A DNA stretch of 64,000 nucleotides, from the NCBI GenBank assembly GCA_964552775.1, contig CAZKIH010000016.1:11430-75429 (forward strand). Reading direction: 5' to 3'. The translations under genes and the position numbers were made by a program. This document shows positions 20,386 through 50,162 of the stretch, in pieces; within the stretch, counting starts at the first letter, position 1, and each line of letters opens with the position of its first letter. The notes beneath the pieces are model-generated. The model worked only from the letters and a program-made list of their open reading frames with translations. It did no database searches and was not told the DNA's origin. The stretch is from an uncultured Ignavibacteria bacterium (GTDB taxonomy: Bacteria; Zixibacteria; MSB-5A5; CAIYYT01).

Positions 20386-20394
20386 ACCGGCTGA

Positions 20395-24051: not shown

Positions 24052-24058
24052 GCAGTTC

Positions 24059-36045: not shown

Positions 36046-39000
36046 GTGAGCAGAATCCCCCGACCGACAAGTTACTCTGGTTCTTGCGCGAACGTGCCAA
36101 GGAACTGAATTGCCTCTATCGAATCGAAGAATGGCTCAACAAGCCGGGTGTGACACTTGAACAGGTTTGCATGGGAATCATCGAAGCAATTCCCGCCGGT
36201 TGGCAGCATCCCGAGGTCTGCCAGGCACGGATTATCCTCGAGGACGCAACCTATACCGCGTCCGGTCTCAAGGAATCGCCGTGGGTAATGACTGCCGCAC
36301 TCAAAGTCTTTGATCAAGTGCTGGGAACGCTGAGTGTCTATTACACACAGCAAATGCCGATTGAAGACGACGGCCCTTTTCTCAAGGAAGAGCGCAAACT
36401 GGTCACTACCATTGCCGAACGACTGGCAAGTCACATCGCTTTTCAGAAAATGCGATCGGTATACCATCAATATAACACCGCTGCCCAGGAACTCGTCGAA
36501 CATGCCCGCCCCGAATGGCGCGTGGTGCTCGATCTGTTGCGCCGCACCGATCGAAATCTCTACCTCACCATTTCCACCAAAATGCTCAACTATCTCTGTT
36601 GGAGTGGTGTCGAGGAAGCTAAACAACTGGCCTTATACTACGATCCTGAGCTGGCCTCGGACGCAGTCAGCCTTCTTTCCGATTCCAATGTTCCCCACCG
36701 TAAGCGGGCGGCATTGGAAGGGAGCGATTTTATCAGCGACGAGACATTCAAAATCGCCGCCGATAATATGACTCCGGAGGAAATTCTTTCTTTCATTCAG
36801 AGGTGGATTCAACAAGACAAGTTGAGTTTCCTGATCAAGACTCTGGCGAACACCAACACTCCACTGACTGAATTGAACGAGTCGATTCGCCGCTTTCACC
36901 GCATGGCGCCTGAGGGAATCGACATCCCCATCAATACCAAGCGCGGTTTGCTCGTCTCGCTGATTCGACGAATCTTCTCGGAATCCCTCGAGTATATCAA
37001 CATCGCCAAGCACTATGTCGATGTCTACGACATTTTCGAACTCATGCAGAACGTCATCTATCTCCCCAGCTCGCAAGGCAAACTCGGCGGCAAGGCCGCG
37101 GGCATCTTTCTCGCCGGACAAATACTCAAGAAATCTGTAGCCTCGAATCCATTGTTGCAGCATATCAAAACGCCCAAGGCATGGTACATGACTTCCGATA
37201 TCGTCCTCAATTTCATGAGCTATAACAATTTTGATGAGGTTATCGAACAGAAATACAAAGAAGTCGAACAGATCCGACTCGAGTACCCCAACGTAGTACA
37301 GACATTCAAAAGCGCAGTTTTCCCGCCAGAAATCGTCAAGACTCTCTCGGTTGTCCTCGATGACTTCTCGGATCACCCGCTGATTGTCAGAAGTTCGAGT
37401 TTGCTCGAAGATCGCACTGGAGCAGCCTTCTCCGGCAAGTATAAGAGCTTGTTCCTTGCCAATCAGGGCACAAAAGAAGAACGCCTCACTGCCCTGCTCG
37501 ACGCCATTGCCGAGGTATATGCCTCTACTTTCGGCCCTGACCCGATAGAGTATCGCGCCGAGCGTGGATTGCTCGATTTCCATGAAGAAATGGGAATCAT
37601 CATCCAGCAGGTCATCGGTACCAAAGCCGGCAAGTACTTCCTCCCGGCATTTGCGGGGGTGGCATTCAGCCATAACGAATTGCGCTGGTCGCCGCGCATC
37701 CGCCGCGATGATGGGCTCATCCGCATCGTTCCGGGTCTGGGTACGCGCGCAGTTGACCGCACCAGCGACGACTACCCGATTCTCGTGTCTCCCGGACAGC
37801 CGGGGCTCCGTGTAAACGTCACCGCCGACGAGATGGTGCGCTATTCGCCTAAGATGATCGACGTCATCAATCTCGACACGAATACCTTTGAGACATTACA
37901 TATCGATGAGTTGCTGCACGAGTTTGGCGATGAGATTCCGATGATACACCAAATCGTATCAGTCGACAAGGGTGACCATATCCAAAGCCCGCTCGGCCAC
38001 ATCGACTTCGCAAATGAACGACTCGTTGTTACATTCGAGGGCTTATTGAGGAATACTGACTTTGTAGCGCAGGTGCAATCGATTCTCAAGACATTGGAGC
38101 AGAAGCTCGGAACGCCCGTCGATCTTGAATTTGCCCACGACGGTACCGACTTCTACCTCTTGCAGTGCCGTCCGCAAAGCCATTCCGACGACAGCGGTCC
38201 AGCCCCAATTCCCAAGGATGTCCCGCCGGAGAAAGTCATTTTCACGGCCAACCGCTACGTGTCAAACGGACGCGTCCCGGACATTACCCATCTCGTCTAT
38301 GTCGATCCCGAAAAATATGCAGAGATCGAAGATCGACAGCAATTGCTGGCAGTCGGGCGCATTGTCAGCCGCTTGAACCAGATACTTCCCAAGCGACAAT
38401 TCGTTCTTATGGGACCCGGTCGCTGGGGCAGCCGTGGCGATATCAAACTCGGCGTGAGCATCACCTACTCGGATATCAATAACACCGCCATGCTAATTGA
38501 AATTGCCAGGCAAAGTGGACACTACGTCCCCGACTTGTCGTTTGGAACTCACTTTTTCCAGGATTTGGTTGAGGCACAAATTCGCTATCTGCCGCTCTAT
38601 CCCGATGATGGTGCAAACGTATTCAACGAACGATTTCTCAAAGAGTCGCACAGCATCTTGCCGGAAGTGCTCCCGGAGTATGCCTCTCTCGCCGACGTCG
38701 TCAGACTCATCGATGTTCCTCGCAGCGCGTCTGGTCAGGTCGTGCACGTGCTCATGAATTCCGATCTGGACAGTGCCGTTGCCCTGCTCGGTGCACCGCG
38801 AGCCCGAGTACAGGGTCAGCTCGAGGCGCCCAGCTCATTGGGTGCGCCGGGAGAGCACTATTGGCGGTGGCGCTTCAATATTGCCGAGCAGATCGCCGCT
38901 CAGCTCGATCCGGTCCGTTTCGGTGTGAAGGGATTCTACGTCTTCGGCTCCACGAAAAATGCTACCGCCGGACCCAGCAGTGACATTGACCTGCTCGTCC

Positions 39001-39230
39001 ATTTCGCAGGGTCGTCCGTGCAAAGAGTAGAATTGGAAGGGTGGCTGGAAGGTTGGAGCTTCTGCCTCGCTGAAATCAACTATGAACGAACTGGCTACCG
39101 GAATGATCGCATGCTGGATGTCCACATCATCACAGATGAGGACATTGCCAACAACGACAGCTACGCACTTAAGATTGGCGCAGTGACCGATGCCGCGCGT
39201 CCCCTGCCGATGGGAAAATCTTCCAAGTAA
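36042..39230 (+). CDS. multidomain protein: sensor-like N-terminus, PPDK_N ATP-grasp, shared C-module, C-terminal nucleotidyltransferase
   Basis: ATGA overlap with the upstream gene. N-terminus ELNCLYRIEEWL...GPFLKEERKLVTTIAERLA. GGKAAGIFLAG and LIVRSSSLLEDRTGAAFSGKY. GPGRWGSRGD...SFGTHFFQD. The C-terminal FGSTKNATAGPSSDIDLLVHF (nt 38931-39005) matches the pol-beta NTase GS..DxD motif. Confidence 0.75.
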   Translation: MSEQNPPTDKLLWFLRERAKELNCLYRIEEWLNKPGVTLEQVCMGIIEAIPAGWQHPEVCQARIILEDATYTASGLKESPWVMTAALKVFDQVLGTLSVYYTQQMPIEDDGPFLKEERKLVTTIAERLASHIAFQKMRSVYHQYNTAAQELVEHARPEWRVVLDLLRRTDRNLYLTISTKMLNYLCWSGVEEAKQLALYYDPELASDAVSLLSDSNVPHRKRAALEGSDFISDETFKIAADNMTPEEILSFIQRWIQQDKLSFLIKTLANTNTPLTELNESIRRFHRMAPEGIDIPINTKRGLLVSLIRRIFSESLEYINIAKHYVDVYDIFELMQNVIYLPSSQGKLGGKAAGIFLAGQILKKSVASNPLLQHIKTPKAWYMTSDIVLNFMSYNNFDEVIEQKYKEVEQIRLEYPNVVQTFKSAVFPPEIVKTLSVVLDDFSDHPLIVRSSSLLEDRTGAAFSGKYKSLFLANQGTKEERLTALLDAIAEVYASTFGPDPIEYRAERGLLDFHEEMGIIIQQVIGTKAGKYFLPAFAGVAFSHNELRWSPRIRRDDGLIRIVPGLGTRAVDRTSDDYPILVSPGQPGLRVNVTADEMVRYSPKMIDVINLDTNTFETLHIDELLHEFGDEIPMIHQIVSVDKGDHIQSPLGHIDFANERLVVTFEGLLRNTDFVAQVQSILKTLEQKLGTPVDLEFAHDGTDFYLLQCRPQSHSDDSGPAPIPKDVPPEKVIFTANRYVSNGRVPDITHLVYVDPEKYAEIEDRQQLLAVGRIVSRLNQILPKRQFVLMGPGRWGSRGDIKLGVSITYSDINNTAMLIEIARQSGHYVPDLSFGTHFFQDLVEAQIRYLPLYPDDGANVFNERFLKESHSILPEVLPEYASLADVVRLIDVPRSASGQVVHVLMNSDLDSAVALLGAPRARVQGQLEAPSSLGAPGEHYWRWRFNIAEQIAAQLDPVRFGVKGFYVFGSTKNATAGPSSDIDLLVHFAGSSVQRVELEGWLEGWSFCLAEINYERTGYRNDRMLDVHIITDEDIANNDSYALKIGAVTDAARPLPMGKSSK

Positions 39231-39278
39231 CCGCCTGCATCAGGCTGTGTCCTGTTGATAACTCGCCTTCATCTTTCG

Positions 39279-40157
39279 TCAGGCAATCAGCTCTCTTCGC
39301 GCACCTGCTGGATTCTCCAGATCAAAGCTGATAAGCGCCAACTCTGGTCCATCGTGAGCCGCAGAAATCATCTCCGTACGTCCGATTGTGTCCCGCCAGG
39401 CGCCTGTCAATCGTGCAGATTCATGTACGTGCCCGTGCAGGGTCAGGTAAGGCTGCCTTTGTTCGATAAACCGCCGCACCGCTATGCTCCCGATATGGGG
39501 ATCAAGTGTGACCCCGTCCACAACCATGCCGTCAAGCGCGGCTCGATCGAGCTTGGTCTGGTAAGGCGGGGTATGAAAAAGAAAAACCGCATGATCCAGA
39601 TCGCGGCCCTTCGTGAGTACCCGCAAATCCTTTTCAATAGTGCTGTAACGTAATTCATCGGTTGATACTGCTACCGAGTGTGCTCCCTCCTCCGGAGCCA
39701 CGCAGCCGGCATCTACAAATCTTGAAACGTCGTAGCGCTCCCAGTCCTTGAGAATAAAGGGCGTCGGTGGAATGAAAGAGTATCCAAAAATACGATGTTC
39801 ACCCAAATCTGCGCAACTATTGTGAATATAGGTCCACAAGCCGCGCTCGGCGATTTCCTCGACTGTCTTCTCCTCACCGCGGCCGTCATCATTGCCAAGT
39901 ATCACAAAGATCCGGGGATAAGCACTGCCCATCTTGTTGCGCAACGATTTCAATTCCGGCTCCAGAAACCAGCGAAGGAAATCCTCGTTTGCAGCCCCCG
40001 CCGCCAATATTGATCCCAATCCGGATGGCAAGAGGTCCCCACCGAGAAACAGTGCATCTGGCCGGACTTCACTGACTGCCGTGAATAGTCTATGATATTT
40101 CTCCACGTTCCCGTGCAGGTCGGAGACAAACTGGCAAGAAAATGATCTCGTCGCCAT
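39279..40157 (-). CDS. metallophosphoesterase
   Basis: Contains FVSDLHGN, GGDLLP, GNDDG, FHTPP, and HGHVHE. Confidence 0.8.
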   Translation of the reverse strand: MATRSFSCQFVSDLHGNVEKYHRLFTAVSEVRPDALFLGGDLLPSGLGSILAAGAANEDFLRWFLEPELKSLRNKMGSAYPRIFVILGNDDGRGEEKTVEEIAERGLWTYIHNSCADLGEHRIFGYSFIPPTPFILKDWERYDVSRFVDAGCVAPEEGAHSVAVSTDELRYSTIEKDLRVLTKGRDLDHAVFLFHTPPYQTKLDRAALDGMVVDGVTLDPHIGSIAVRRFIEQRQPYLTLHGHVHESARLTGAWRDTIGRTEMISAAHDGPELALISFDLENPAGARRELIA

Positions 40158-40407
40158 GATGATGTTAATATATATCGATTTCTGACGATTGGTCCTGTTC
40201 TACGTTCACCGCCGGTAAGGAAAAACGAAGTCGATTCTCAGGATAATCGAAGCTCATTAGCCTTGACCAGAGCCGGACTGTCCGCTTTCTTGTTTGTGAA
40301 ATCTTTAGCAAGCTTTGTATTACAACTCGGTAGATTTGCATCAATAAAGTAGAGTTTTTACTCTTTCTTTATTGTCCGTACAAAACATTCCAAAGAAGGA
40401 GACTTCG

Positions 40408-41766
40408 ATGTCGAGCAACGTTGCTGCCTTTATGGAGCAGGTCAAAGCCAAGAACGCTGGCGAGAAAGAATTTCACCAGGCGGTGCAAGAGGTTGTGGAA
40501 TCGCTGATGCCGTATCTTGACAAGCATCCGGTTTACCGCGAAGCCAAGATCCTTGAACGCATTGTCGAACCGGAACGTGTCTTGATGTTCCGCGTGCCGT
40601 GGGTCGATGATTCCGGCGAGGTCAGAGTTAATCGCGGATTCCGCATCGAGATGAATTCCGCTATCGGTCCGTATAAGGGCGGTTTGCGTTTCCACCCGAC
40701 CGTCAATCTCGGCATTTTAAAGTTCCTGGCGTTTGAACAGGTATTCAAGAACAGCTTGACGACACTCCCCATGGGTGGCGGCAAGGGTGGTTCTGATTTC
40801 GATCCCAAGGGCAAATCGGATCTCGAAGTCATGCGCTTCTGTCAGGCCTTCATGAGTGAATTGTTCCGTCACATCGGCGGCAACACAGACGTTCCAGCCG
40901 GCGACATCGGTGTCGGCGGGCGCGAAATTGGATTCATGTTCGGACAATACAAGAAACTCCGTAATGAATTCGTTGGCGTGTTGACCGGCAAGGGGCTCAA
41001 CTGGGGCGGCAGCTTGATTCGTCCGGAAGCCACCGGCTACGGCGCCGTCTACTTCGCCGCAGAAATGCTCGGTACTCGAAATGAATCGCTTCAGGGCAAA
41101 ACTTGCCTTGTTTCTGGTTCTGGTAACGTTGCCCAATACACCGTGGAGAAACTGCTCGACCTGGGCGCCAAGCCAATGACCTTCTCCGATTCCGCCGGGT
41201 ACATCTATGACGACGCCGGTATCGACCGTGAGAAACTCTCGTTCGTATTGGATCTCAAGAACAATCGTCGTGGTCGCATCAAGGAATATGCAGACAAATA
41301 CAAAACCGCGGTGTACACACCGCTCCAGGCCGGAATGGATCACAATCCACTCTGGAACCACAAGGCCCAGTGCGCCTTCCCATCCGCTACTCAAAACGAA
41401 ATCAGTGGAAAGGATGCGCAGAATCTCATCAATAACGGCATTTACGTTGTGAGCGAAGGCGCCAATATGCCATCAGCGCCCGAAGCAATTAATATCTTTA
41501 TTGATAACAAGATTCTCTACGGCCCGGGTAAGGCTGCCAATGCCGGCGGCGTGGCGACCTCGGGACTCGAGATGTCACAGAACAGCCTGCGCCTGTCGTG
41601 GACACGCGAAGAGGTCGACAAGAGACTGCATGGCATCATGAAAGCCATCCACTCGACTTGCGTCAACTTCGGCAGAGAAGGCAACTACATCAACTACGTG
41701 AACGGAGCCAACATCGGCGGCTTCGTGAAGGTGGCAGACGCTATGCTCGACCAGGGCGTCGTCTAA
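40408..41766 (+). CDS. gdhA: NADP-specific glutamate dehydrogenase (E. coli GdhA type)
   Basis: ATG at 40408 after AAGGAG. Contains GPYKGGLRFHP, PMGGGKGGSDFDPKGKS, and GSGNVAQY. The ORF track starts 36 nt upstream. Confidence 0.9.
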   Translation: MSSNVAAFMEQVKAKNAGEKEFHQAVQEVVESLMPYLDKHPVYREAKILERIVEPERVLMFRVPWVDDSGEVRVNRGFRIEMNSAIGPYKGGLRFHPTVNLGILKFLAFEQVFKNSLTTLPMGGGKGGSDFDPKGKSDLEVMRFCQAFMSELFRHIGGNTDVPAGDIGVGGREIGFMFGQYKKLRNEFVGVLTGKGLNWGGSLIRPEATGYGAVYFAAEMLGTRNESLQGKTCLVSGSGNVAQYTVEKLLDLGAKPMTFSDSAGYIYDDAGIDREKLSFVLDLKNNRRGRIKEYADKYKTAVYTPLQAGMDHNPLWNHKAQCAFPSATQNEISGKDAQNLINNGIYVVSEGANMPSAPEAINIFIDNKILYGPGKAANAGGVATSGLEMSQNSLRLSWTREEVDKRLHGIMKAIHSTCVNFGREGNYINYVNGANIGGFVKVADAMLDQGVV

Positions 41767-41808
41767 TTTCCGCTCGATACCCACAGGGTATCTCCTTTCC
41801 TTTCGATA

Positions 41809-41843
41809 CGGGCGACTCGCTGGAGAGTCGCCCGTTTTCTGTT
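41809..41843 (+). terminator. rho-independent terminator after gdhA
   Basis: CGGGCGACTC-GCTGGA-GAGTCGCCCG followed by TTTTCTGTT. A second small hairpin GATACCC-ACA-GGGTATC lies at 41776-92. Confidence 0.75.
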
Positions 41844-41912
41844 GCTGCAAACCTCTCTGCAGTCCATATTAGGTCAGGTCACGAGGAACTTCATCTTGAG
41901 GAATCGTTCTCA

Positions 41913-42269
41913 ATGGTTGATTGTTTCAATATCGGCACGCGTGAGTGTCTCAAGCGCCAGCAGAGTTCGATAATCGCGTTCGTCCTAACGATTCTGATGT
42001 ACCTCGCGCTGCGGGTCAACGGTTCGCAGCCAGTCTGGTACCTGTTATTGATACTCCCCGCATGGGTTGCTGTCCTCGGGCTGCTACAAGCCCGGACGAA
42101 GACTTGAGTGGCGCTGGCAGCGCGCGGTCTGCGCAATCTGGACGGTGGCGAAGAAAAGATCACCGATGAAACAGAGATTCGTTTCCTCCGCCGGAAGGCC
42201 GTGAAGATCCACACGGTGTCTTGCTTGACGGCCGCAATCTTCTCCGTTTTGATGTATCTGACCGCCTGA
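41913..42269 (+). CDS. candidate selenoprotein: small three-TM membrane protein with in-frame UGA at 42105-42107
   Basis: ATG at 41913 with GAGGA 11 nt upstream. Product: MVDCFNIGTRECLKRQQSSIIAFVLTILMYLALRVNGSQPVWYLLLILPAWVAVLGLLQARTKT-[UGA]-VALAARGLRNLDGGEEKITDETEIRFLRRKAVKIHTVSCLTAAIFSVLMYLTA. The frame stays open for 53 codons after the UGA and encodes a third hydrophobic helix. A SECIS-like hairpin follows the UGA. Confidence 0.4.
42118..42140 (+). promoter_or_regulatory. SECIS-like stem-loop
   Basis: Lower stem CAG/CUG (42118-20 with 42138-40). Upper stem GCGC/GCGC (42122-25 with 42131-34). Apical loop GGUCU (42126-30). G23 and U24, counted from the U of UGA, fall as in the E. coli fdhF SECIS. 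Confidence 0.4.
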
Positions 42270-42331
42270 GTTGTGTGACGGCATTATGATGAAAACAGAC
42301 AACTTTTTCCCGAAGGGTACACAGCAACGAT

Positions 42332-43117
42332 ATGCGCGACATTCTCGAAATCATGGGATCGCACCGATCGATCCGCAAGTACAGTAACCGGCCCGTCGAA
42401 CCTGCTCTACTCACGAAGATATTGGACGCCGCTCGTCAAGCGCCGTCGTCCTCTAACTTGCAGTCATATTCTATACTGGTCATTCGCGACAGTGAGAAAA
42501 AGAAACTATTGTCACAGTACTGCGGTAATCAAACTTGGGTCGCGCAGTGTCCGGTTTTTCTCGTGATGTGCCCTGATCTTCATCGCCTTAATGAGGTCTG
42601 CCTGCAGCGCGGCTACAAGTTCCAGGATCGCTACCTCGAAATCACCCTCGTGTCAGTCATTGATACATCCTTGGTGGCTCAGAATATTGCAATTGCCGCT
42701 GAAGCCGAAGGAATGGGCATCTGCATGATCGGCGGCATCCGAAACAATCCTGACAAAGTCTGTGACCTGCTCAAACTGCCGAAGCGTGTTTTTCCCCTGA
42801 TGGGAATTTGCCTCGGCTATCCCGATCAGGAGCCAATGATTAAACCACGCCTTCCCCATGATGTGGCGGTTCACTACGAGCAGTACCGGGACGGCGGACT
42901 CGAAAACCAGCTCATCGAATATGACAGATTGATTAAATCAACCGGGCTGTACGACGGCTCCCATCGCAAAGTCGCCGCTCCCGATGGTCGCGACTTGCCT
43001 GACAGCGAATATAGCTGGAGTGAGCACAGTGCGCGCCGCGCGGCATCGAGCAATCCTGTGACTCTCCGTGCGCACATGTACAATTTTCTGAAGGATCAAC
43101 TGATAGGACTTGAGTAG
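42332..43117 (+). CDS. NADPH-dependent nitroreductase-family oxidoreductase (NfsA/Frp-like)
   Basis: Contains HRSIRKYSNRPV, QAPSSSNLQ, and ICMIGGIRN. Confidence 0.8.
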   Translation: MRDILEIMGSHRSIRKYSNRPVEPALLTKILDAARQAPSSSNLQSYSILVIRDSEKKKLLSQYCGNQTWVAQCPVFLVMCPDLHRLNEVCLQRGYKFQDRYLEITLVSVIDTSLVAQNIAIAAEAEGMGICMIGGIRNNPDKVCDLLKLPKRVFPLMGICLGYPDQEPMIKPRLPHDVAVHYEQYRDGGLENQLIEYDRLIKSTGLYDGSHRKVAAPDGRDLPDSEYSWSEHSARRAASSNPVTLRAHMYNFLKDQLIGLE

Positions 43118-43146: not shown

Positions 43147-44520
43147 CTAAGAAATCAGCCCGGCGATGCGATGCGACTGCTTCACGCAGTCATTGAGACC
43201 GATGCCATAATATGCATTGCCCGCGAGGTAGACACCGTCAATTGCGCTTAGCTCCCGTTCTATAGCATCGAGCAGCTTGCGATGCCCGACCCGATACTGC
43301 GGAATTCCGTAATTCCAGCGGTAAACCTTGACTATCTCCGGTCCTCCCGATATTCCCATAATTTCCCCGAGGTCTCGCATGGCCAAACCGACCAGCTCAT
43401 CATCCGACAGTCCTATCGACTCGTGATCACCGTCGCCTCCCACCATCGTGCGGAACTGGATCATCCCCTGTGGCGCGCGTTCGGCAAATATCGACGAGGT
43501 CCAGATCGAACCAAGTATTCGACGCCCTTCCTTCTGCGGAACAAGAAAGCCAAAACCGTCCACCGACCTTTTGATCTGATTAGAACGATAGCCGGCACAG
43601 ACTACGGAGATGGGAGCATAAGGAATGCTCGCCAGGGATTGTGACAGTTCCGGCGAGAGGCCGGCTACAAGCTTGGCCGTCTCGTATGATGGTGTCGCGA
43701 TTATGATATTGCGTGACTGTGCGATCGAACCATCAGCGAATCGAATTGAGAAACCGCCTTCTCCCTTTGTGATCGCCTTCGCGGCCTTTCCGACCTCTAT
43801 GTAAGGCGAGTATCGTTCATGAAACCGCTCGATGATCCGGTTGAGGCCGCCTCGGAACGAAGTCAACCAGCCACCCGGCCCCGACGGTCCACCGCCCTTC
43901 TTGCCCTTGGCCCTGGACTCCTTGGCTTTGGAGATCATCGCCTTGAATAACGATCCGTACTCGTCTTCCATCTGGCGCATTATCGGGAAACAAGATTGCA
44001 GCGACATCTTCTGCGCTACGCCTCCGTAAACACCCGATACCATCGGTTGCACCAGATAATCGGCCGCTTCTCTGCCGATACGGCGACAGGCAAAATCATA
44101 GATCGACTCGTCAATTCCGTTTCCGCGCGACTTGGCAAATGGCTCCATGGCGATTCGCAGCTTGCCCCCCCAGCTAATGATGTCTGCCATCAAAAACTTC
44201 GGCGGCGACATCGGTACCAGGCGCAGCCGGCCACCTTTGAGGATAAATCGATTGTTGACGCTCTCGTTCGCTCGCTCAAGTTGATCTTTCAGGCCCAATT
44301 CCACACAGAGTTGGAGTGTCAACGGCTCGCGATCCAGAAATCCATTCGGTCCCCAGTCAAAACTGTAGCCGTCAATCTGGTCTGTGCCGATAGTCCCGCC
44401 CAGGCGCGCTTCTGCCTCGAACAACTTCACCGACAAATGCGGCTTACTTGATCGCAAAAAGTGCAGCGCGGCAAGTCCCGAAATTCCCCCGCCGATTATG
44501 ATCACATCACTCGCTGACAT
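43147..44520 (-). CDS. hemY: protoporphyrinogen oxidase (HemY-type FAD oxidase)
   Basis: DVIIIGGGISGLAA dinucleotide fold and C-terminal YLAGNAYYGIGLNDCV. Start taken at ATG 44520 (MSASD...), a 14-nt overlap with hemH. The track ORF extends to 44580. Confidence 0.8.
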   Translation of the reverse strand: MSASDVIIIGGGISGLAALHFLRSSKPHLSVKLFEAEARLGGTIGTDQIDGYSFDWGPNGFLDREPLTLQLCVELGLKDQLERANESVNNRFILKGGRLRLVPMSPPKFLMADIISWGGKLRIAMEPFAKSRGNGIDESIYDFACRRIGREAADYLVQPMVSGVYGGVAQKMSLQSCFPIMRQMEDEYGSLFKAMISKAKESRAKGKKGGGPSGPGGWLTSFRGGLNRIIERFHERYSPYIEVGKAAKAITKGEGGFSIRFADGSIAQSRNIIIATPSYETAKLVAGLSPELSQSLASIPYAPISVVCAGYRSNQIKRSVDGFGFLVPQKEGRRILGSIWTSSIFAERAPQGMIQFRTMVGGDGDHESIGLSDDELVGLAMRDLGEIMGISGGPEIVKVYRWNYGIPQYRVGHRKLLDAIERELSAIDGVYLAGNAYYGIGLNDCVKQSHRIAGLIS

Positions 44521-45463
44521 CGACTCCTGCTTTCCTTCGAATGATTCCGGCCAGTATACTGCCAAACTCGGCGTCGTCATTGAGCATCGGCATGCGGCGA
44601 ATACGCTCTGATTTTTCGCCGCCGATGATCTCCTTCAATTGTATGTCCAGTTCATAGAGAGTCTCGATGTGGTCGCAGACAAAGCTAATCGGCACGATAA
44701 ACAGCCTGCGTGTCGGGTCCCCGAGCAATCGCCTTACCTCGACAATCGTATCCGGACCAACCCACTTCACCGGACCGGTGCGACTCTGGAACGAGAGGTA
44801 GTATTCTCTCTCACCTGCTGACAATGTAGCCGCCTTCCGAACCTGATCGACATACGGATCTCCCTCATCGACGAATTTCTGCGGCAAGGAATGCGCAGAA
44901 AATAGCAGCGTCTCACCCGGTTGGATGTTCCGCACGATATAAGAGTTCAGCAGTCGTATGTATGTCGGCTCGTCGTGAAAATCACGAATAAATGTCGCTT
45001 CAATTTGTGGATACTTTTTCAGGAATTCCTGCGCAACTGCAAATGATGATCCTGTCGTCGCGGTGGAGAATTGCGGATAAAGCGGCAAAAAACAGATTCG
45101 TTTATATCCGTCTTCAATAGCCGACGTAATGGCGTACTCTATACTCGGCTTGAAATATCGCATTCCAATGTAACAGGTAACATCATCGAAGTCGCGTTGC
45201 AGGTGGTTCCCGATCTGGCGGGCCTGGGCTTGCGTCCATTTCAGCAATGGTGACCCGCCGCCAATCAGGCCGTAGTGATGCGCAACATTCTTCGCGCGAA
45301 GCCGCGAAATCAATCGAGCAAATGGCCTTTGCAGAGCCGCGCCGCCTGGTAATCGGATAATCGCGCGGTCGGAGAAGATGTTATACAAGAACTCTGGAAT
45401 GTCAGCTGTCGTGTCAGGGCCGCCCATGGCCAGCAGAATCACCGCAAGCTTGCTCTTCATCAT
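44507..45463 (-). CDS. hemH: ferrochelatase
   Basis: 318 aa with LLAMGGPDT, FSAHSLP, and DHIETLYELD. Confidence 0.9.
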   Translation of the reverse strand: MMKSKLAVILLAMGGPDTTADIPEFLYNIFSDRAIIRLPGGAALQRPFARLISRLRAKNVAHHYGLIGGGSPLLKWTQAQARQIGNHLQRDFDDVTCYIGMRYFKPSIEYAITSAIEDGYKRICFLPLYPQFSTATTGSSFAVAQEFLKKYPQIEATFIRDFHDEPTYIRLLNSYIVRNIQPGETLLFSAHSLPQKFVDEGDPYVDQVRKAATLSAGEREYYLSFQSRTGPVKWVGPDTIVEVRRLLGDPTRRLFIVPISFVCDHIETLYELDIQLKEIIGGEKSERIRRMPMLNDDAEFGSILAGIIRRKAGVDVSE

Positions 45464-45468
45464 TAGAC

Positions 45469-46872
45469 CTAAATTGTGCGGGAAAAACGAATGCCTTTGG
45501 ATTCGCCGCTGCCATCGAGATAAGCGTCGAAAGTCATGGCGATATTGCGGACGAAGGTGCGGCCAATCGGCGTGATCTGCAGTCCAGACTCATCTGCTGT
45601 CATCAGACGATCCTCAAGGAACACCTCAAGCTCAGGATGTTCTCTGCGAAAATATTCGTCATACTTCACTGCAAATAGCTGCTCCACCGCTTGATAATGC
45701 AGCCGGAAATTGCACATCAACTGGCTGATGACATACTGCCGAATCAAGTCATCCTTGGTGAGATTCATTCCCCGATAGATGGCAAAACGCTTCTCGCGAA
45801 TCGCGTTCTCATAACTGTCGAGTTTCGAATGATTCTGAAAGAACGAATTGTCGACGTAGCCGATTGCCGACATACCGAAACCGATCATCTCCGGTGCAGT
45901 CTGCACTGTGTAACCCATGAAATTGCGGTGCAACCGGCCGTCCTTCTGTGCCAGGGCCAGCTCGTCATCCGGCTGAGCGAAATGATCCATTCCGATCTGA
46001 CGATATCCCGCCTTCGTGAATTCCTCGACGGCCGACGCAAAGAGCTGATATTTCACTTCAGTTCCTGGCAGTTCCTCGGTCTTGATTTTGAATTGATTCG
46101 GGAGGCTGTGCGGAAGATAGGCGAACGAGTACAGCGCCACGCGATCGGGACGAAGCGACAAAGTCTTGCGGAGAGTCTCGTAGAAGCTCTTCGTCGATTG
46201 GCGCGGCAGACCATAAATCAAGTCGACATTGATACCTTTGAAGCTCAGGCTTCTCACCTTGTCAATGATATGCTTGATTCGTTCGTACGATTGGACTCTG
46301 CCGATTGCTTCCTGCACGGAGACATCGAAATCCTGCGTGCCGATGGAAATGCGGTTGAACCCTACCGAGGCGAGAAAGTCCAACTGCTGGTCAGTCGTCA
46401 CTCGCGGATCGACCTCGATTGATTTTTCTGCGTCGGGGATGAATTTGAATTTACTGTCGATGACCTTGAGAATGATCTCCAGCCCTTTGCAGTCGACAAA
46501 TGTCGGCGTGCCGCCGCCCAGGTGCAGCTGGCTTACATTGCGACGCTCGCCCAGATGCTCGGACGTGTTGATTATCTCCAGGGCGAGATCCGCAACATAC
46601 TTATTGACGCGGTCGGTATTGTTCGTGACGACGGTGTTGCAGCCGCAATAGTAGCAGCGCTTCCGACAGAACGGAATATGACAATAGAGCGATAACGGCG
46701 ATTCGGTCTTGGTGGAAGTCGCTTTCAACGCCTTGATATACTGCTCGGCACCGATTTCATTGCTCCAGACCGGAGCGGTCGGATAACTCGTGTAGCGAGG
46801 TCCCGGGCGGTCGTATTTGCGCAACAACTCAATCGGTACGCGCGTAAATGTCTGCTCGGCAGCCATAGTCAA
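45469..46872 (-). CDS. hemN: oxygen-independent coproporphyrinogen III oxidase (radical SAM)
   Basis: 467 aa with YCHIPFCRKRCYYCGC (CxxxCxxC) and GGGTPT. Confidence 0.9.
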   Translation of the reverse strand: MTMAAEQTFTRVPIELLRKYDRPGPRYTSYPTAPVWSNEIGAEQYIKALKATSTKTESPLSLYCHIPFCRKRCYYCGCNTVVTNNTDRVNKYVADLALEIINTSEHLGERRNVSQLHLGGGTPTFVDCKGLEIILKVIDSKFKFIPDAEKSIEVDPRVTTDQQLDFLASVGFNRISIGTQDFDVSVQEAIGRVQSYERIKHIIDKVRSLSFKGINVDLIYGLPRQSTKSFYETLRKTLSLRPDRVALYSFAYLPHSLPNQFKIKTEELPGTEVKYQLFASAVEEFTKAGYRQIGMDHFAQPDDELALAQKDGRLHRNFMGYTVQTAPEMIGFGMSAIGYVDNSFFQNHSKLDSYENAIREKRFAIYRGMNLTKDDLIRQYVISQLMCNFRLHYQAVEQLFAVKYDEYFRREHPELEVFLEDRLMTADESGLQITPIGRTFVRNIAMTFDAYLDGSGESKGIRFSRTI

Positions 46873-47894
46873 TTCCGGAACTTCCTGACTTCAGCAATCA
46901 TCGCTTCCACGGACTCCAGTGGCGTTTCCGGCAGGATGCCGTGCCCAAGATTGAAAATCAGATTATTGTGTCGCTTCAAGCTGTTGAGCATTGTGCGCGT
47001 CCGCTCGACAACCTGGGCCGGAGTGTTAAACAGCACTGTCGGATCGAGATTCCCCTGCAGTGATTTGCCGTTCAGCTTGGCCGCTGCCGCCGCAAGCTCA
47101 ATCCGATAGTCAACACCGATCACTTCGCAATCCAGCCTTGTGAGTATATCCAGATAGGGCGCTACATTATTCACAAAAAGTATACGCGGCACCTCCTTCG
47201 CCTTGAGCGCGGCCAGGATTTTCGCAACCGGTTTAGCCGACCACTCCCGGTAGTCATCGTGCGCGAGAATTCCACCCCAACTGTCAAATATCTGGATCGC
47301 ATCGGCTCCGGCTTCAACCTGCGCGCAAAGGTACTCGCTGATCGTGTCGGTCAGCAAATCAATCAGCTTGTGAGCTGCATCAGGATAGCGCTGGATAAAT
47401 TTCTTTGCCTTGTCAAAGGTCTTCGAACCCTTGCCTTCCGTGAGATAGCAAAAAAGCGTGAATGGCGATCCGGCAAATCCGATCAGCGGCGTGTTGGGCA
47501 ATGACTCCTTGATCTCATCGATCCCTGCAAGCACGAAGTGAAGATCGTGCTCGATGTGGCAGCCGTGAATGCTCTCCACGTCCTCGGGCTTCGCAATCGG
47601 AGAACCGATGATCGGCCCGCCGTCCGGAAAGCTCACCTCAACTCCCATCGGTTCGAGAATTGTCAGTATGTCCGAGAACAGAATTGCTGCGTCCAGGTGG
47701 AACCGCTCGACAGGTTGGCGAACAACCTCGGCGATCAGTCGCGGCGATTTGCAGAGTTCCTGAAATGTCACCGCCCTGCGCACAGTCTGGTATTCGGGAA
47801 GATAGCGCCCTGCCTGCCGCATGATCCAGATCGGAATCGGACCATCGTTGGTACCGTAGCAGGCCTTAATAAATGGGCTATTCTTTATGCCCAT
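46869..47894 (-). CDS. hemE: uroporphyrinogen decarboxylase
   Basis: PIWIMRQAGRYLPEY. Start taken at ATG 47894 (MGIKNSPF...), overlapping the hemL stop by 10 nt. The track ORF extends to 47981. Confidence 0.9.
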   Translation of the reverse strand: MGIKNSPFIKACYGTNDGPIPIWIMRQAGRYLPEYQTVRRAVTFQELCKSPRLIAEVVRQPVERFHLDAAILFSDILTILEPMGVEVSFPDGGPIIGSPIAKPEDVESIHGCHIEHDLHFVLAGIDEIKESLPNTPLIGFAGSPFTLFCYLTEGKGSKTFDKAKKFIQRYPDAAHKLIDLLTDTISEYLCAQVEAGADAIQIFDSWGGILAHDDYREWSAKPVAKILAALKAKEVPRILFVNNVAPYLDILTRLDCEVIGVDYRIELAAAAAKLNGKSLQGNLDPTVLFNTPAQVVERTRTMLNSLKRHNNLIFNLGHGILPETPLESVEAMIAEVRKFRN

Positions 47895-49201
47895 ACATGG
47901 GCCTCGTTCTTTATCGCCGTCGCGAGAATCGTCGCCGCTTCTGACAACAATTCTTCGGTATGCGCAGCCGACAGGAAGCAAACCTCGTAGCCCGACGGGG
48001 GTAAATAGATCCCCTGATCGAGTATCTTTGAGTGCATGCGATTGAAATGCGCGATGCCATCGCTGTTGATGGTATGCGCCGCGCGCGGGAGTTCATTCTG
48101 AAATACAACCCAATACATCGAACCAACTCCTGCCACGTTGACATGATTCTCTCGCAACTGCTCCATCAGCAAACTCACAAAGCGACGATTCTTCGTCTCG
48201 AGCTCTGCATAGATCTTTCCGTCGGCGAGCTTGCGAAGTGTCGTCAAGCCGGCGGTCATCGCCACCGGGTTTCCCGACAGCGTTCCGGCCTGATAGACTG
48301 GTCCCAGCGGCGAGAGCATATTCATGATTTCCGCACGGCCGCCGAATGCACCGACCGGCATGCCGCCACCGATAATCTTTCCATACGTCACCAGATCGGG
48401 ACGAATCCCATAGTAAGCCGCCGCACCGCCCAGACCGATCCGAAATCCGGTAATGACCTCGTCGAATATCAGGACTGCGCCGTGACGCTCGGTCAGGGCA
48501 CGCAAAAGTCGAATATAGTCGTGTCGCTGAATCAATAGTCCGTTATTCGCCGGAATACCTTCGATGATTACCGCCGCCAATTCATCGCCGTGCGCGGCAA
48601 AAAAATCTTGAAGGGCATCCTCATCATCGAGCGGCAAAACAGCCGTCTTACTCGTAATTGAATCCGGCACCCCTGCAGACGAAGGCTGCCCAAATGTTGC
48701 CAGCCCGGAGCCGGCCTTGACCAGCAGATGATCGCAATGCCCGTGGTAACAGCCGTCAAACTTGAGAATCAAATCGCGCTTCGTAAAGCCGCGGGCCACT
48801 CGTATCGCCGACATGACAGCTTCGGTGCCGGATGAGACGAATCGAATCTTCTCAACGACATCGACATGCTTGACAATGAACTGGGCAAGTTCGTATTCGA
48901 GCTCCGTCGAGGCGCCAAAGGTCATTCCCTTGTCAACCTGCGCCTTGACCGCTGCGACTACATCCTTGTCGGCGTGACCGAGAATGAGCGGTCCCCAGGA
49001 ACTGCAAAAGTCGAGATACTTGTTGCCGTCAACATCGTAAAGATATGCACCGGCACCCTTGGCAATGAACCTCGGCGTACCTCCCACTGACTTGAATGCC
49101 CGAACCGGTGAATTGACTCCGCCCGGAATAACTTCCGCAGAGAGCTCCAACAACTTCCGCGACTTCGCGCTATCGAATACGACTTTAGATATGCCAGCCA
49201 T
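47885..49201 (-). CDS. hemL: glutamate-1-semialdehyde 2,1-aminomutase
   Basis: Contains GGVNSPVRAFKSVGG, FDEVITGFR, and YGKIIGGG (PLP lysine). Confidence 0.9.
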   Translation of the reverse strand: MAGISKVVFDSAKSRKLLELSAEVIPGGVNSPVRAFKSVGGTPRFIAKGAGAYLYDVDGNKYLDFCSSWGPLILGHADKDVVAAVKAQVDKGMTFGASTELEYELAQFIVKHVDVVEKIRFVSSGTEAVMSAIRVARGFTKRDLILKFDGCYHGHCDHLLVKAGSGLATFGQPSSAGVPDSITSKTAVLPLDDEDALQDFFAAHGDELAAVIIEGIPANNGLLIQRHDYIRLLRALTERHGAVLIFDEVITGFRIGLGGAAAYYGIRPDLVTYGKIIGGGMPVGAFGGRAEIMNMLSPLGPVYQAGTLSGNPVAMTAGLTTLRKLADGKIYAELETKNRRFVSLLMEQLRENHVNVAGVGSMYWVVFQNELPRAAHTINSDGIAHFNRMHSKILDQGIYLPPSGYEVCFLSAAHTEELLSEAATILATAIKNEAHVWA

Positions 49202-50162
49202 TCTTCAAAATGTCCTTCAGATGATAGGTCAAAATTACCGACGCACCGGCTCTGGTGATCGCTGTCAAGTTTTCAAGTACCATAGTCTTCTCATCCGCCA
49301 GTCCCGCCTGCGCCAATAGCTTGACCGCAGTATATTCCCCCGAGACGTTGTAAGCCGCAACCGGTAGCTCGGTATTCGCCGCGAAATCGGCGATGATGTC
49401 CAGATATGCCAATGCAGGCTTGACCATTACAATATCTGCTCCCTCTGCCTCGTCAAGCTCAAGCTCTCGCAACGCCTCCCGACGATTGCGAAAATCCATC
49501 TGATAGCCTTTGCGGTCGCCCTTTCCGGGAGCCGAATTTGCGGCTTCCCTGAATGGACCGTAGTAAGCGGAGGCATATTTAGCGGAATAAGCGAGGATTA
49601 TCGTATCATAAAGGCCGTCGCCTTCAAGCGCCTTGCGAATGGCAGCAATGCGCCCGTCCATCATGTCGGACGGACCGACACAGTCGCAACCAGCTTTGGC
49701 AAGAGCCACTGCCATCTTGCTCAGAATGGCAGCCGACTTGTCATTGTCAATCTTGCCCTCGAGTGTAACGCCGCAGTGTCCGGTGTCGGTATAAGCGCAG
49801 AGGCAGACATCGGCACTCACAAACAGCGCTTCACCGAATTTGTTCTTCAATTCTTTCGTTGCTCTGATAACCGGATTCTTTTCATCAAAGGCTGAGGTTC
49901 CAAGCACATCCTTGCGTTCAGTGACCCCGAAAAGCATGATCTTGTCAATCCCGAGTCTTATATCATCGTCAATCGTCCTGACCAATGAATCGACGGAATC
50001 GCGATAGATGCCGGGTAATCCCTTTATCTCGTCGTGGACGTTGACTCCATCGGTAACAAAGTAGGGCTGGATCATTCCGCCGATATTCAATCGCGTCTGC
50101 GCCACCAGGTCGCGAATTAGCTGATTTCGTCGGAGACGCCGCGGCCGATTGAGATTTTCCAT
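49185..50162 (-). CDS. hemB: porphobilinogen synthase (ALA dehydratase)
   Basis: N-terminal RPRRLRRNQLIRDLV, then VSADVCLCAYTDTGHCG and VMVKPALAYLD. Confidence 0.9.
   Translation of the reverse strand: MENLNRPRRLRRNQLIRDLVAQTRLNIGGMIQPYFVTDGVNVHDEIKGLPGIYRDSVDSLVRTIDDDIRLGIDKIMLFGVTERKDVLGTSAFDEKNPVIRATKELKNKFGEALFVSADVCLCAYTDTGHCGVTLEGKIDNDKSAAILSKMAVALAKAGCDCVGPSDMMDGRIAAIRKALEGDGLYDTIILAYSAKYASAYYGPFREAANSAPGKGDRKGYQMDFRNRREALRELELDEAEGADIVMVKPALAYLDIIADFAANTELPVAAYNVSGEYTAVKLLAQAGLADEKTMVLENLTAITRAGASVILTYHLKDILKNGWHI

What the first reader, a model, noticed from the sequence alone, without database searches (positions are those of the whole stretch)
41913..42269. In-frame UGA followed by an fdhF-like SECIS hairpin in a small membrane-protein ORF: candidate unannotated selenoprotein
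The ORF starts at ATG 41913 with GAGGA 11 nt upstream. It encodes two TM helices and hits TGA at 42105. The same frame then stays open for 53 more codons to TGA 42267. These codons encode a charged amphipathic stretch and a third hydrophobic helix. Otherwise 42108-42331 would be an unexplained gap of about 220 bp.

The mRNA after the UGA reads UGA GUG GCG CUG GCA GCG CGC GGU CUG CGC AAU CUG. It folds into a CAG/CUG lower stem, a small internal loop, a GCGC/GCGC upper stem and a GGUCU apical loop. As I recall it, the E. coli fdhF SECIS reads UGA CAC GGC CCA UCG GUU GCA GGU CUG CAC CAA... GGU CUG are codons +7 and +8 in both sequences. That places the SelB-contacting G23/U24 at exactly the same distance from the UGA. 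The residue context would be ...LLQARTKT-U-VALAARG... at the cytoplasmic or periplasmic end of TM2.
Basis: partly seen in the sequence, partly recalled or inferred. Interest (0 to 1): 0.8.

Follow-up and report, generated by a model that had tools for sequence, protein, structure and literature searches.

The report
Unlisted small membrane selenoprotein family
The stop codon inside this small membrane-protein gene almost certainly encodes selenocysteine, and the gene belongs to a widespread, unnamed protein family that is missing from current lists of bacterial selenoproteins.

Summary
ORF 41913-42269 (+) has an in-frame TGA at 42105. Full-length homologues of about 120 aa run straight through this position with a nearly invariant Cys (motif Q-x-[RKQ]-x-x-T-C-[VI]-x-L-A-A-R-G). 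The family has about 1,800 clusters at 50% identity and no Pfam, NCBIfam or PDB relative.

TGA at exactly this codon recurs in a second strain, in a syntenic Zixibacteria orthologue, in an Ignavibacteria MAG and in at least 120 diverse metagenome contigs. In these copies the downstream 52-60 codons stay open. They are under the same purifying selection as the upstream half (pN/pS 0.35 vs 0.37), and 41% lack a start codon after the TGA.

A hairpin 13-27 nt downstream of the UGA (positions 16-20 paired with 26-30, invariant GG in the loop) is specifically reinforced in UGA forms. Synonymous sites are 94-99% fixed, RNAalifold finds the hairpin only in UGA forms, and the ΔG difference has p = 1e-9.

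Sec machinery in this genome could not be tested. The recoding mechanism is canonical; the family is new. The protein's function is unknown; my best guess is a membrane-interface redox or chalcogen-relay protein.

The parts
41808..41835 (+). Terminator-like hairpin (11 bp stem followed by a T-run) after gdhA. It separates the small gene from the upstream transcription unit.
41898..41902 (+). Shine-Dalgarno-like GAGGA, 10 nt before the ATG
   Evidence: read directly from the sequence
41913..42269 (+). Complete gene: a 118-residue product if UGA 42105 is read as Sec (MVDCFNIGTRE...TKT-U-VALAARGLRNLDGGE...MYLTA), ending at TGA 42267-42269
41928..41945 (+). N-terminal family motif N-I-G-x-R-E (residues 6-11). 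N and G are nearly invariant in the family. In the model of a homologue this motif bridges to the beta-hairpin.
41964..42017 (+). Transmembrane helix 1 (about residues 18-35)
42033..42092 (+). Transmembrane helix 2 (about residues 41-60)
42105..42107 (+). In-frame TGA, proposed Sec65. It aligns with the nearly invariant Cys of the family (T-C motif) and with TGA in at least 124 other sequences.
42108..42152 (+). Most conserved peptide motif, V-A-L-A-A-R-G-L-R-N-L-D-G-G-E (residues 66-80): a short helix plus a beta-hairpin. Its codons also form the SECIS-like hairpin.
42120..42134 (+). SECIS-like hairpin in the family-consensus register. Numbering the U of the UGA as 1, positions 16-20 pair with 26-30 (G-C, C-G, G-C, C-G, G-U in the window) and the loop is CGGUC (21-25). 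G22 and G23 are invariant.
42213..42263 (+). Transmembrane helix 3 (about residues 101-117), preceded by a charged amphipathic helix (residues 84-100)
42267..42278 (+). The true stop, TGA 42267, backed up by a second in-frame TGA at 42276. No comparable G+C-rich hairpin follows.
   Evidence: read directly from the sequence

Best explanation
Gene 41913-42269 encodes a 118-residue inner-membrane protein with three helices. UGA 42105 is decoded as selenocysteine (Sec65) by the standard bacterial route. A stem-loop that starts 13 nt downstream of the UGA (positions 16-30) and carries an invariant GG in its loop acts as the SECIS. This SECIS recruits SelB carrying Sec-tRNA(Sec) to the ribosome, so translation continues to the real stop at 42267.

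What is shown:
- UGA pairs with Cys at an almost invariant family position.
- The downstream frame is conserved and under purifying selection.
- The hairpin is strengthened at the nucleotide level specifically in UGA forms.

What is inferred:
- That SelB and tRNA-Sec exist in this organism.
- That selenium, rather than sulfur, is inserted.

Function (inferred, low confidence): by the positive-inside rule, the Arg/Lys-rich N-terminus and the Arg-rich stretch before TM3 face the cytoplasm. That places Sec65 at the cytoplasmic end of TM2. In the model it sits at the N-terminal cap of a short helix, next to the conserved N-I-G motif and a beta-hairpin. This is the usual setting for a reactive nucleophile. 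The protein is therefore most likely a thiol/selenol-based redox or sulfur/selenium-relay protein acting at the membrane surface.
For: 1. Three database homologues are continuous, with Cys aligned to the UGA and 40-44% identity across both halves.

2. An exhaustive profile search finds 1,796 clusters (560 at E <= 1e-10). The top 150 are nearly all full-length proteins of about 120 aa with the T-C motif.

3. The TGA is retained in an independent assembly from another sample. That copy differs by 3 SNPs, and both SNPs downstream of the TGA are synonymous.

4. TGA at the same codon occurs in a Zixibacteria MAG that is syntenic with the window (PPDK-like 66%, phosphoesterase 56%, gdhA 85%, this gene 46% identity) and in an Ignavibacteria MAG.

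From my estimate of about 41 bits of pattern information, roughly one chance match was expected. All hits have the family motifs on both sides and 52-60 open codons downstream.

6. pN/pS is 0.35 downstream and 0.37 upstream (22 independent pairs). 41% of 112 distinct UGA forms have a non-start codon right after the UGA.

7. In 88 non-redundant UGA forms, synonymous sites left free by the search pattern are almost fixed: position 18 is G in 94%, position 27 is G in 99%, position 30 is C in 95%. Other third positions show 30-55%. In Cys forms the values are 76%, 68% and 86% (Fisher p = 1e-6 for position 27).

8. RNAalifold predicts a single hairpin (16-20/26-30) in UGA forms (-7.8 kcal/mol) and none there in Cys forms (-0.3). 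Local ΔG is -9.4 vs -6.2 kcal/mol, p = 1e-9.

9. The tool-based pair count gives 92.0% paired vs 88.8 ± 0.6 in shuffles (0/500), and 14 compensatory cells vs 5.5 (0/500).

10. TGA is an ordinary stop in this genome: it ends 9 of the 42 longest ORFs, and this gene itself ends in TGA.

11. The window's loop places G23 and U24 exactly where fdhF has them.

12. The AlphaFold2 model of the Cys homologue P0002 has pLDDT 97.4 and puts the Cys at the N-cap of a short helix right after TM2.
Against: - No selA, selB, selD or tRNA-Sec was found in the 64 kb window or in 1.29 Mb of flanks of related loci. This is uninformative rather than negative, but the defining machinery remains unshown for this organism.
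- The window's hairpin is not more stable than shuffled sequence.
- A weaker version of the hairpin also forms in many Cys forms, because it is built from the conserved Ala-Ala-Arg-Gly codons.
- The Cys-form DNA control set (37 sequences) is dominated by one family, Pyrinomonadaceae.
- I could not test whether TAA or TAG ever occurs at this codon.
- A few UGA copies look degraded: the Binatia pair has a frameshift, and L134 is fused with its downstream neighbour gene.
- No gene-neighbourhood, domain or structural evidence supports any particular biochemical function.
Confidence: 0.85

Rival explanations
1. Pseudogene: a TGC/TGT-to-TGA nonsense mutation inactivated a Cys-form gene, and the downstream frame is open only because the event is recent.
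For: A single base change converts TGC to TGA. A few UGA copies elsewhere do look degraded: the Binatia pair has a frameshift, and L134 is fused with its neighbour gene.
Against: - The TGA is kept in a second strain, and the only downstream changes there are synonymous.
- It is also kept in a syntenic orthologue that is only 46% identical.
- At least 120 diverse metagenome copies keep 52-60 open downstream codons with pN/pS 0.35, equal to the upstream half.
- Nonsense mutations would not all fall on one codon, and they would not co-occur with a strengthened hairpin.
Confidence: 0.02
2. Split gene: the family was divided into a 64-aa two-helix protein that ends at TGA and a 53-aa protein that starts at GTG 42108. 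The second is translated by termination-reinitiation at the overlapping UGA-GUG.
For: In the window and in 59% of UGA forms (66 of 112), the codon after the TGA is GTG. Gene callers do call a separate downstream ORF there.
Against: - 41% of UGA forms have ATC, GTC, GTA, GTT, ATT or ATA after the TGA, and 35% have no ATG, GTG or TTG within three codons.
- The break always falls on the invariant Cys codon.
- In the sample that did not depend on the codon, only TGA was seen at the break: 4 TGA, 0 TAA or TAG.
- A split gene gives no reason for synonymous-site fixation that forms a hairpin 13-27 nt downstream.
Confidence: 0.04
3. SECIS- and SelB-dependent recoding of UGA, but with cysteine (or another amino acid) inserted rather than selenocysteine. 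This could happen through a non-canonical tRNA-Cys recognised by SelB, or through near-cognate read-through.
For: Such UGA-to-Cys recoding with SelB is described in the literature (Vargas-Rodriguez et al. 2018). I saw this only as a citation in the reference list of PMC13582414 and did not read the paper. Nothing in sequence data alone distinguishes Sec from Cys insertion.
Against: To my knowledge this is a rare system. A UGA/Cys pair with a SECIS-like hairpin is the standard signature of true selenoproteins. Plain near-cognate read-through would not need or select for the hairpin.
Confidence: 0.06
4. Genome-wide reassignment of UGA to a sense codon (Trp or Gly) in this lineage.
For: None, beyond the in-frame UGA itself.
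Against: TGA ends 9 of the 42 longest ORFs in the window, and it ends this gene itself, with a tandem TGA behind it. The aligned residue in homologues is Cys, not Trp or Gly.
Confidence: 0.01

Closest known systems
E. coli fdhF selenocysteine insertion sequence (bacterial SECIS bound by SelB)
   Same: Both have an in-frame UGA followed by a short G+C-rich stem-loop inside the coding sequence. In the window the loop GGUCU places G23 and U24 at exactly the fdhF positions, with GGU CUG as codons +7 and +8 in both genes. The stem starts 13 nt after the UGA. From my own knowledge, the minimal fdhF element is a 17-nt stem-loop that begins after an 11-nt spacer (Liu et al. 1998).
   Different: There is no sequence homology beyond GGUCUGC. 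U24 is U in only 22% of UGA forms, so GG rather than GU is the conserved loop feature. There is no bulged U17; position 17 is an invariant C.
Other prokaryotic integral-membrane selenoproteins in the 2026 inventory (MerT-like mercuric transport protein PF02411, YeeE/YedE PF04143, SaoP permease NF040733, SO_0444 Cu/Zn efflux transporter NF033936)
   Same: Each is a membrane-embedded protein with a single Sec that replaces a conserved Cys, and each was predicted by the same Sec/Cys-pair logic.
   Different: The window protein and 60 family members match none of these models. This protein is much smaller (118 aa, three helices) and shows no transporter architecture.
Pfam PF11127, YgaP-like transmembrane domain (formerly DUF2892)
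   Same: It is the most frequent weak Pfam hit: 10 of 60 members, best E = 0.0012. From my own knowledge of that family, the layout is similar: an N-terminal N-x-G-x-x-[DE]-R motif, two transmembrane helices, and a conserved Cys just after the second helix.
   Different: All hits are far below the gathering threshold, and the window protein has no hit at E <= 1. Profile comparison with real E. coli YgaP gives probability 0.06. Foldseek does not return YgaP. This family also has an extra beta-hairpin, an amphipathic helix and a third transmembrane helix.

Membership tests
Bacterial selenoprotein (UGA recoded as Sec via SECIS and SelB) | The in-frame UGA aligns with a conserved Cys in homologues (Sec/Cys pair) | tested here: met
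   Cys is at the aligned column in 3 database homologues, in 40 genome loci and in nearly all of the top 150 representatives.
Bacterial selenoprotein (UGA recoded as Sec via SECIS and SelB) | UGA-containing homologues exist in other organisms, with the downstream frame open, conserved and under purifying selection | tested here: met
   At least 124 UGA forms were found, including a syntenic orthologue. 52-60 codons are open downstream. pN/pS is 0.35 downstream and 0.37 upstream.
Bacterial selenoprotein (UGA recoded as Sec via SECIS and SelB) | A stem-loop lies shortly downstream of the UGA, with G in the apical loop. The bSECISearch-type consensus, recalled from my own knowledge, is a loop starting 16-37 nt after the UGA and a stem of at least 4 bp. 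| tested here: met
   A 5-6 bp stem at positions 16-21/25-30, with the loop starting 17-18 nt after the UGA and GG invariant. It is reinforced in UGA forms relative to Cys forms.
Bacterial selenoprotein (UGA recoded as Sec via SECIS and SelB) | selA, selB, selC (tRNA-Sec) and selD are present in the same genome | not testable with these tools
   Only 64 kb of the genome is available, and it has no tRNA and no sel genes. The flanks of related loci also have none.
Bacterial selenoprotein (UGA recoded as Sec via SECIS and SelB) | Only UGA, never UAA or UAG, occurs at the recoded position | tested here: inconclusive
   The codon-independent pattern in the genome scan gave 4 TGA and 0 TAA/TAG. A dedicated TAR scan was possible only in viral contigs, which contains no family member at all.
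Bacterial selenoprotein (UGA recoded as Sec via SECIS and SelB) | Selenium is physically incorporated (75Se labelling or mass spectrometry) | not testable with these tools
   This needs an experiment.
Any of the 119 known prokaryotic selenoprotein families or subfamilies (Table 1 of PMC13188914, May 2026) | A match to the family's Pfam, TIGR or NCBIfam model | tested here: not met
   The window protein and 60 family members have no significant hit in Pfam-A or in NCBIfam release 20.0. The table was read in full. The few entries defined only by cd or PTHR identifiers are, by name, Trx-like, BtuF, CopZ-like and Fe-S oxidoreductase families, and I could not scan them directly. The signature peptides are absent from the held supplements of the deep-Sep and GOS papers.
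Pfam PF11127 YgaP-like_TM (DUF2892) | A score above the Pfam gathering threshold | tested here: not met
   The window protein has no hit at E <= 1. 10 of 60 members have only weak hits, best E = 0.0012.
Pfam PF11127 YgaP-like_TM (DUF2892) | Detectable profile or structural similarity to YgaP itself | tested here: not met
   hhalign probability is 0.06 against authentic E. coli YgaP. The PDB profile search and Foldseek do not return YgaP.
fdhF-type SECIS (E. coli) | G23 and U24 in the apical loop at the fdhF distance from the UGA | tested here: met
   This is met in the window. Across the family G23 is invariant, but U24 is U in only 22%.
fdhF-type SECIS (E. coli) | A bulged U17 below the upper stem (feature recalled from my own knowledge) | tested here: not met
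Position 17 is C in all 88 UGA forms.

The most novel reading that the evidence does not exclude
This family's most conserved peptide motif (Ala-Ala-Arg-Gly-x-Arg) is encoded by a G+C palindrome that already folds into a near-SECIS in the Cys forms. In any Sec-decoding host, a single TGC-to-TGA change would then be enough to make a working selenoprotein. That would explain why Cys and Sec have swapped many times (a parsimony minimum of 26 switches on a rough tree, with UGA forms up to 90% identical to Cys forms). It would make this family a natural model for how selenoproteins arise and revert. The protein itself would be the founding member of a new class of very small integral-membrane selenoproteins, with a fold absent from the PDB and a selenol working at the membrane-cytoplasm interface.
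Probability: 0.35. Interest if true: 0.65.

Novelty: new member of a known kind. Interest (0 to 1): 0.55.

Why it matters
Gene callers cut this gene into a 64-aa fragment plus an apparent 220-bp gap. The same must happen in hundreds of soil, sediment and groundwater genomes, so a whole selenoprotein family is invisible in current annotation.

- It adds a family to an inventory of 119. It is one of the few integral-membrane members, the protein is very small, and it has a confidently predicted fold with no solved relative.
- The family is abundant (the scan stopped at 120 UGA forms) and switches often between Cys and Sec. The hairpin is built from the conserved peptide's own codons. Together these make it a convenient system for studying how Sec positions are gained and lost.
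- It extends evidence for Sec use to poorly studied lineages (Zixibacteria, Ignavibacteria-like bacteria, Acidobacteriota).
- It does not change what is known about the recoding mechanism.

Tried and rejected
1. Hairpin stability in the window alone was not significant (z = 0.41), so I dropped it as evidence and used comparative tests instead.

2. Rfam at gathering thresholds on the whole window, and at E <= 10 on 41850-42350, found nothing.

3. ARAGORN on the window and on all loci found no tRNA-Sec.

4. tblastn with E. coli SelA, SelB and SelD against the window and 1.29 Mb of loci found nothing.

5. Other split genes interrupted by TGA in the window: the mechanical list gave no candidate that corresponds to a known selenoprotein family once the window was annotated.

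6. Pfam, NCBIfam and PDB sequence searches, and Foldseek against the PDB, gave no family or fold assignment.

7. The YgaP/DUF2892 kinship is only a weak hint and I rejected it as a membership.

8. Gene-neighbourhood analysis of 164 loci found only clade-specific neighbours and no universal partner: HlyD-like, TraB/GumN, amidohydrolase, CBS, DinB-like, Rieske.

9. A partner Cys for the Sec: a Cys close to the N-I-G motif is present in only 40 of 120 UGA forms, and a Cys at +9 in only 7 of 126, so neither is general.

10. The TAA/TAG test in viral contigs was uninformative, because that collection has no family member in any form.

11. Literature: no paper pairs DUF2892 with selenocysteine. I found no statement on Sec use in Zixibacteria. 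No supplements are held for BSepDB or the 2026 review.

I repeated it with exact sequences.
Full report
**1. The observation**

The sequence is as described. An ATG at 41913 lies 10 nt after GAGGA. It opens a 64-codon frame that meets TGA at 42105. The same frame then stays open for 53 codons, to TGA at 42267, with a further in-frame TGA at 42276.

Hydropathy shows hydrophobic segments at residues 19-33, 44-58 and 102-116, with a charged stretch before the third.

It is found at 100% identity inside fdhF in 5,412 of 5,426 E. coli genomes. GGU CUG therefore occupy codons +7 and +8 after the UGA in both genes.

On its own, though, the hairpin is no more stable than shuffled sequence of the same dinucleotide content (z = 0.41; 135 of 200 shuffles fold at least as well). 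The window has no tRNA gene and no Rfam match.

**2. Homologues read straight through, with Cys at the UGA position**

A search with the 118-residue read-through product found three other proteins. Two are complete (117 and 129 aa). Both run through the position with Cys aligned to the UGA, inside an invariant block T-C-V-x-L-A-x-R-G-L-R-N-x-D-x-G. Both halves are conserved at 38-42% identity.

An exhaustive profile search of 1.84 billion representative proteins found 1,796 clusters at E <= 0.001 and 560 at E <= 1e-10. The best 150 are almost all proteins of about 120 aa with the T-C motif.

In a 60-member alignment the nearly invariant residues are N and G of an N-terminal N-I-G motif, two Arg, T-C-V, one Ala and two Gly. 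Sources name these proteins only "hypothetical protein".

**3. The UGA recurs widely and is old**

- A 506-bp contig from a different sample carries the same gene with three SNPs. The TGA is kept. The two SNPs downstream of it are both synonymous in the read-through frame.
- A scan of one genome per species found 44 loci. Forty have TGC or TGT at the aligned codon. Four have TGA: an Ignavibacteria MAG, a Zixibacteria MAG and two Binatia MAGs.
- The Zixibacteria contig is syntenic with the window: PPDK-like protein 66% identical, metallophosphoesterase 56%, gdhA 85%, then this gene at 46% identity, with TGA in both. The window therefore probably comes from Zixibacteria or a close relative. The UGA has been kept across substantial divergence.
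- A metagenome scan used a DNA pattern anchored on the in-frame TGA. By my estimate the pattern carries about 41 bits, so about one chance match was expected.
- Every hit has the family's N-terminal half upstream of the TGA. Downstream, each has 52-60 open codons that encode the conserved motif, the charged helix and the third hydrophobic helix.
- On a rough neighbour-joining tree of 232 sequences, parsimony needs at least 26 Cys/UGA switches. Errors in a tree of such short proteins inflate this number. Even so, some UGA forms are 87-90% identical to Cys forms.

**4. The downstream half is translated in frame, not started separately**

Among 22 independent pairs of moderately diverged UGA forms, pN/pS is 0.35 for the 50 codons after the UGA and 0.37 for the 55 codons before it.

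Of 112 distinct UGA forms, 66 have GTG after the UGA. The other 46 (41%) have ATC, GTC, GTA, GTT, ATT or ATA. 35% have no ATG, GTG or TTG within three codons.

A pseudogene would not keep the downstream frame under selection. A split gene would need a start codon. TGA is a normal stop in this genome: it ends 9 of the 42 longest ORFs in the window, and it ends this gene itself. That rules out genome-wide reassignment.

**5. The SECIS question, tested by comparison**

Positions are numbered with the U of the UGA as 1. Several positions in the proposed stem are third codon positions and are free to vary. My search pattern left positions 18, 21 and 24-30 unconstrained.

| Position | UGA forms (n = 88) | Cys forms (n = 37) |
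|---|---|---|
| 18 | G in 94% | G in 76% |
| 27 | G in 99% | G in 68% (Fisher p = 1e-6) |
| 30 | C in 95% | C in 86% |

Other third positions in the same UGA-form sequences show 30-55% for the commonest base.

These fixed bases complete a stem: 16-30, 17-29, 18-28, 19-27 and 20-26, paired in 97-100% of UGA forms. A sixth pair, 21-25, shows compensatory changes (37 C-G, 9 A-U, 3 U-G, 2 G-C) and pairs in 59% of sequences, against 41% expected from column composition. At least 5 of the 6 pairs are present in 86 of 88 UGA forms, against 22 of 37 Cys forms.

- RNAalifold, run independently, predicts exactly this hairpin for the UGA forms (-7.8 kcal/mol) and nothing at that site for the Cys forms (-0.3). 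Local folding energy is -9.4 ± 1.9 versus -6.2 ± 2.3 kcal/mol (Mann-Whitney p = 1e-9).
- The pair-counting tool gives 92.0% paired against 88.8 ± 0.6 in shuffles (0 of 500 reach it). It counts 14 compensatory cells against 5.5 ± 1.9 (0 of 500).
Its lower CAG/CUG stem pairs in only 63% of cells.

So a hairpin at the right place is well supported. Its likely form is a 5-6 bp stem with a loop of 3-5 nt that contains an invariant GG, the first two bases of the Gly codon. U24 is not conserved (22% U), and there is no bulged U17.

In the window both registers are possible, and both leave G22, G23 and U24 in the loop.

Caveats:
- The hairpin is built from the codons of the conserved Ala-Ala-Arg-Gly motif, so a weaker version exists in many Cys forms.
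- The Cys-form DNA control is dominated by Pyrinomonadaceae.
- Related sequences can exceed shuffle controls without any structure.

**6. What could not be shown**

No selA, selB, selD or tRNA-Sec is present in the window or in 1.29 Mb of flanking DNA around related loci. These genes are not expected to be linked, and E. coli probes are distant, so this says little.

I found no paper on Sec use in Zixibacteria. Acidobacteriota and several other phyla that carry the family are documented Sec users.

Whether TAA or TAG ever occurs at the aligned codon also could not be tested properly. Sequence data cannot exclude SelB-dependent insertion of Cys at the UGA. That rare mechanism is cited in the reference list of PMC13582414.

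**7. What the protein is**

No Pfam or NCBIfam model reaches significance for the window protein or for 60 family members. The commonest weak hit is PF11127, the YgaP-like transmembrane domain (10 of 60 members, best E = 0.0012).

Profile comparison with authentic E. coli YgaP gives nothing. Neither the PDB sequence search nor Foldseek finds a relative.

AlphaFold2 models the Cys homologue P0002 with very high confidence (pLDDT 97.4, pTM 0.87). The model has helix 7-33, helix 38-60, the Cys at residue 63 capping a short helix 64-68, a beta-hairpin at 71-80 that bridges to the N-terminal N-I-G motif, and a long helix 84-113.

By the positive-inside rule (inference), the Arg/Lys-rich N-terminus and the Arg-rich stretch before the third helix face the cytoplasm. 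That puts the Cys/Sec at the cytoplasmic membrane surface.

No second Cys is generally conserved. Gene neighbourhoods differ between clades.

Substitution of Cys by Sec at a helix N-cap points to a reactive nucleophile. My best guess is a membrane-surface redox or sulfur/selenium-relay protein, held with low confidence.

**8. Surroundings in the window**

Upstream are two PPDK-like genes, a metallophosphoesterase, and gdhA, which ends in a strong terminator-like hairpin at 41808-41835. Downstream is a nitroreductase-family gene on the same strand. Beyond it, on the other strand, lies a nine-gene heme biosynthesis operon. Nothing in the 64 kb is specific to selenium.

**9. Novelty**

The May 2026 inventory of prokaryotic selenoproteins lists 119 families and subfamilies, each with a domain identifier. 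This family matches none of the Pfam, TIGR or NF models among them.

The words "transmembrane" and "membrane protein" do not occur in that review, nor in the deep-Sep paper. The word "membrane" does not occur in the BSepDB paper. The family's signature peptides are absent from the held supplements of the deep-Sep and GOS papers.

I therefore rate it a new member of a known kind: an undescribed selenoprotein family that uses the canonical bacterial recoding mechanism.

**10. Verdict**

| Claim | Verdict |
|---|---|
| Observation | Confirmed |
| Confidence that UGA 42105 is decoded as Sec | About 0.85 |
| Interest | 0.55 |

The interest score is moderate. New selenoprotein families are still found regularly and the mechanism is standard. 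On the other hand, this family is abundant, membrane-embedded, structurally new and completely missed by current annotation.

Noticed in passing
window 43147-53057 (- strand): A complete, tightly packed nine-gene heme biosynthesis operon: glutamyl-tRNA reductase, porphobilinogen deaminase, uroporphyrinogen-III synthase, ALA dehydratase, GSA aminotransferase, uroporphyrinogen decarboxylase, HemN-type radical-SAM oxidase, ferrochelatase and a protoporphyrinogen-oxidase-like flavoprotein.
   Followed up: partly
window 32895-34181 and 40372-41766 (+): Two paralogous glutamate dehydrogenase genes lie 6 kb apart. They flank two tandem PPDK-N-domain (PEP-utilising) proteins, and the second of those carries a C-terminal nucleotidyltransferase domain.
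   Followed up: no
L006 3-6341 compared with window 36042-42269: The gene order PPDK-like, metallophosphoesterase, gdhA, small UGA gene is conserved with a Candidatus Zixiibacteriota MAG (gdhA 85% identical). This suggests the window comes from Zixibacteria or a close relative. The MAG contig is only 6.4 kb, so its binning is not certain.
   Followed up: partly
L046 1384-1640 and L047 1003-1260: The two Binatia MAG copies are 100% identical to each other. About 20 codons after the UGA they carry a frameshift, and the third-helix sequence continues in another frame. This is either an assembly indel or a decaying copy.
   Followed up: partly
L134 (UGA at nt 69 of the reverse strand) and L168: Two metagenome copies have an abnormal N-terminal half. 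In L134 the read-through frame also lacks the third helix and runs on for 354 codons into the TraB/GumN-like neighbour gene. These look like degraded or rearranged copies.
   Followed up: no
L062 (UGA at nt 692 of the reverse strand): In this copy the frame does not stop after the third helix. It continues for at least 75 more codons into a sequence that looked to me like a DedA-type membrane protein, up to the end of the contig. Pfam gives no hit for the fragment.
   Followed up: partly
L077, L140, L141, L143, L149 (metagenome) compared with L022 and L033 (genomes): UGA forms inside the Pyrinomonadaceae-type clade are 87-90% identical to Cys forms. They keep the second Cys nine residues downstream (U-x8-C). 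Several have a weaker hairpin with a C·U mismatch at pair 18-28. These may be very recent Cys-to-UGA conversions.
   Followed up: partly
window 61221-63656 (+): A P-type ATPase with two N-terminal heavy-metal-associated domains. Cation-transporting E1-E2 ATPases are one of the listed selenoprotein families, but this copy has no in-frame TGA.
   Followed up: no
window 8696-9193, 11164-11910 and 42332-43117 (+): Rubrerythrin, Fe/Mn superoxide dismutase and a nitroreductase-family gene are in the window. The nitroreductase lies immediately downstream of the selenoprotein gene on the same strand. This may be a loose oxidative-stress context, but the adjacency is not conserved in other lineages.
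   Followed up: partly
window 17074-26809 (- strand): A signalling cluster: a Ser/Thr protein kinase with TPR repeats (1,103 aa), a GAF-PAS histidine kinase, an Omp85-family protein, a NUDIX hydrolase and a SpoIIE-type phosphatase.
   Followed up: no
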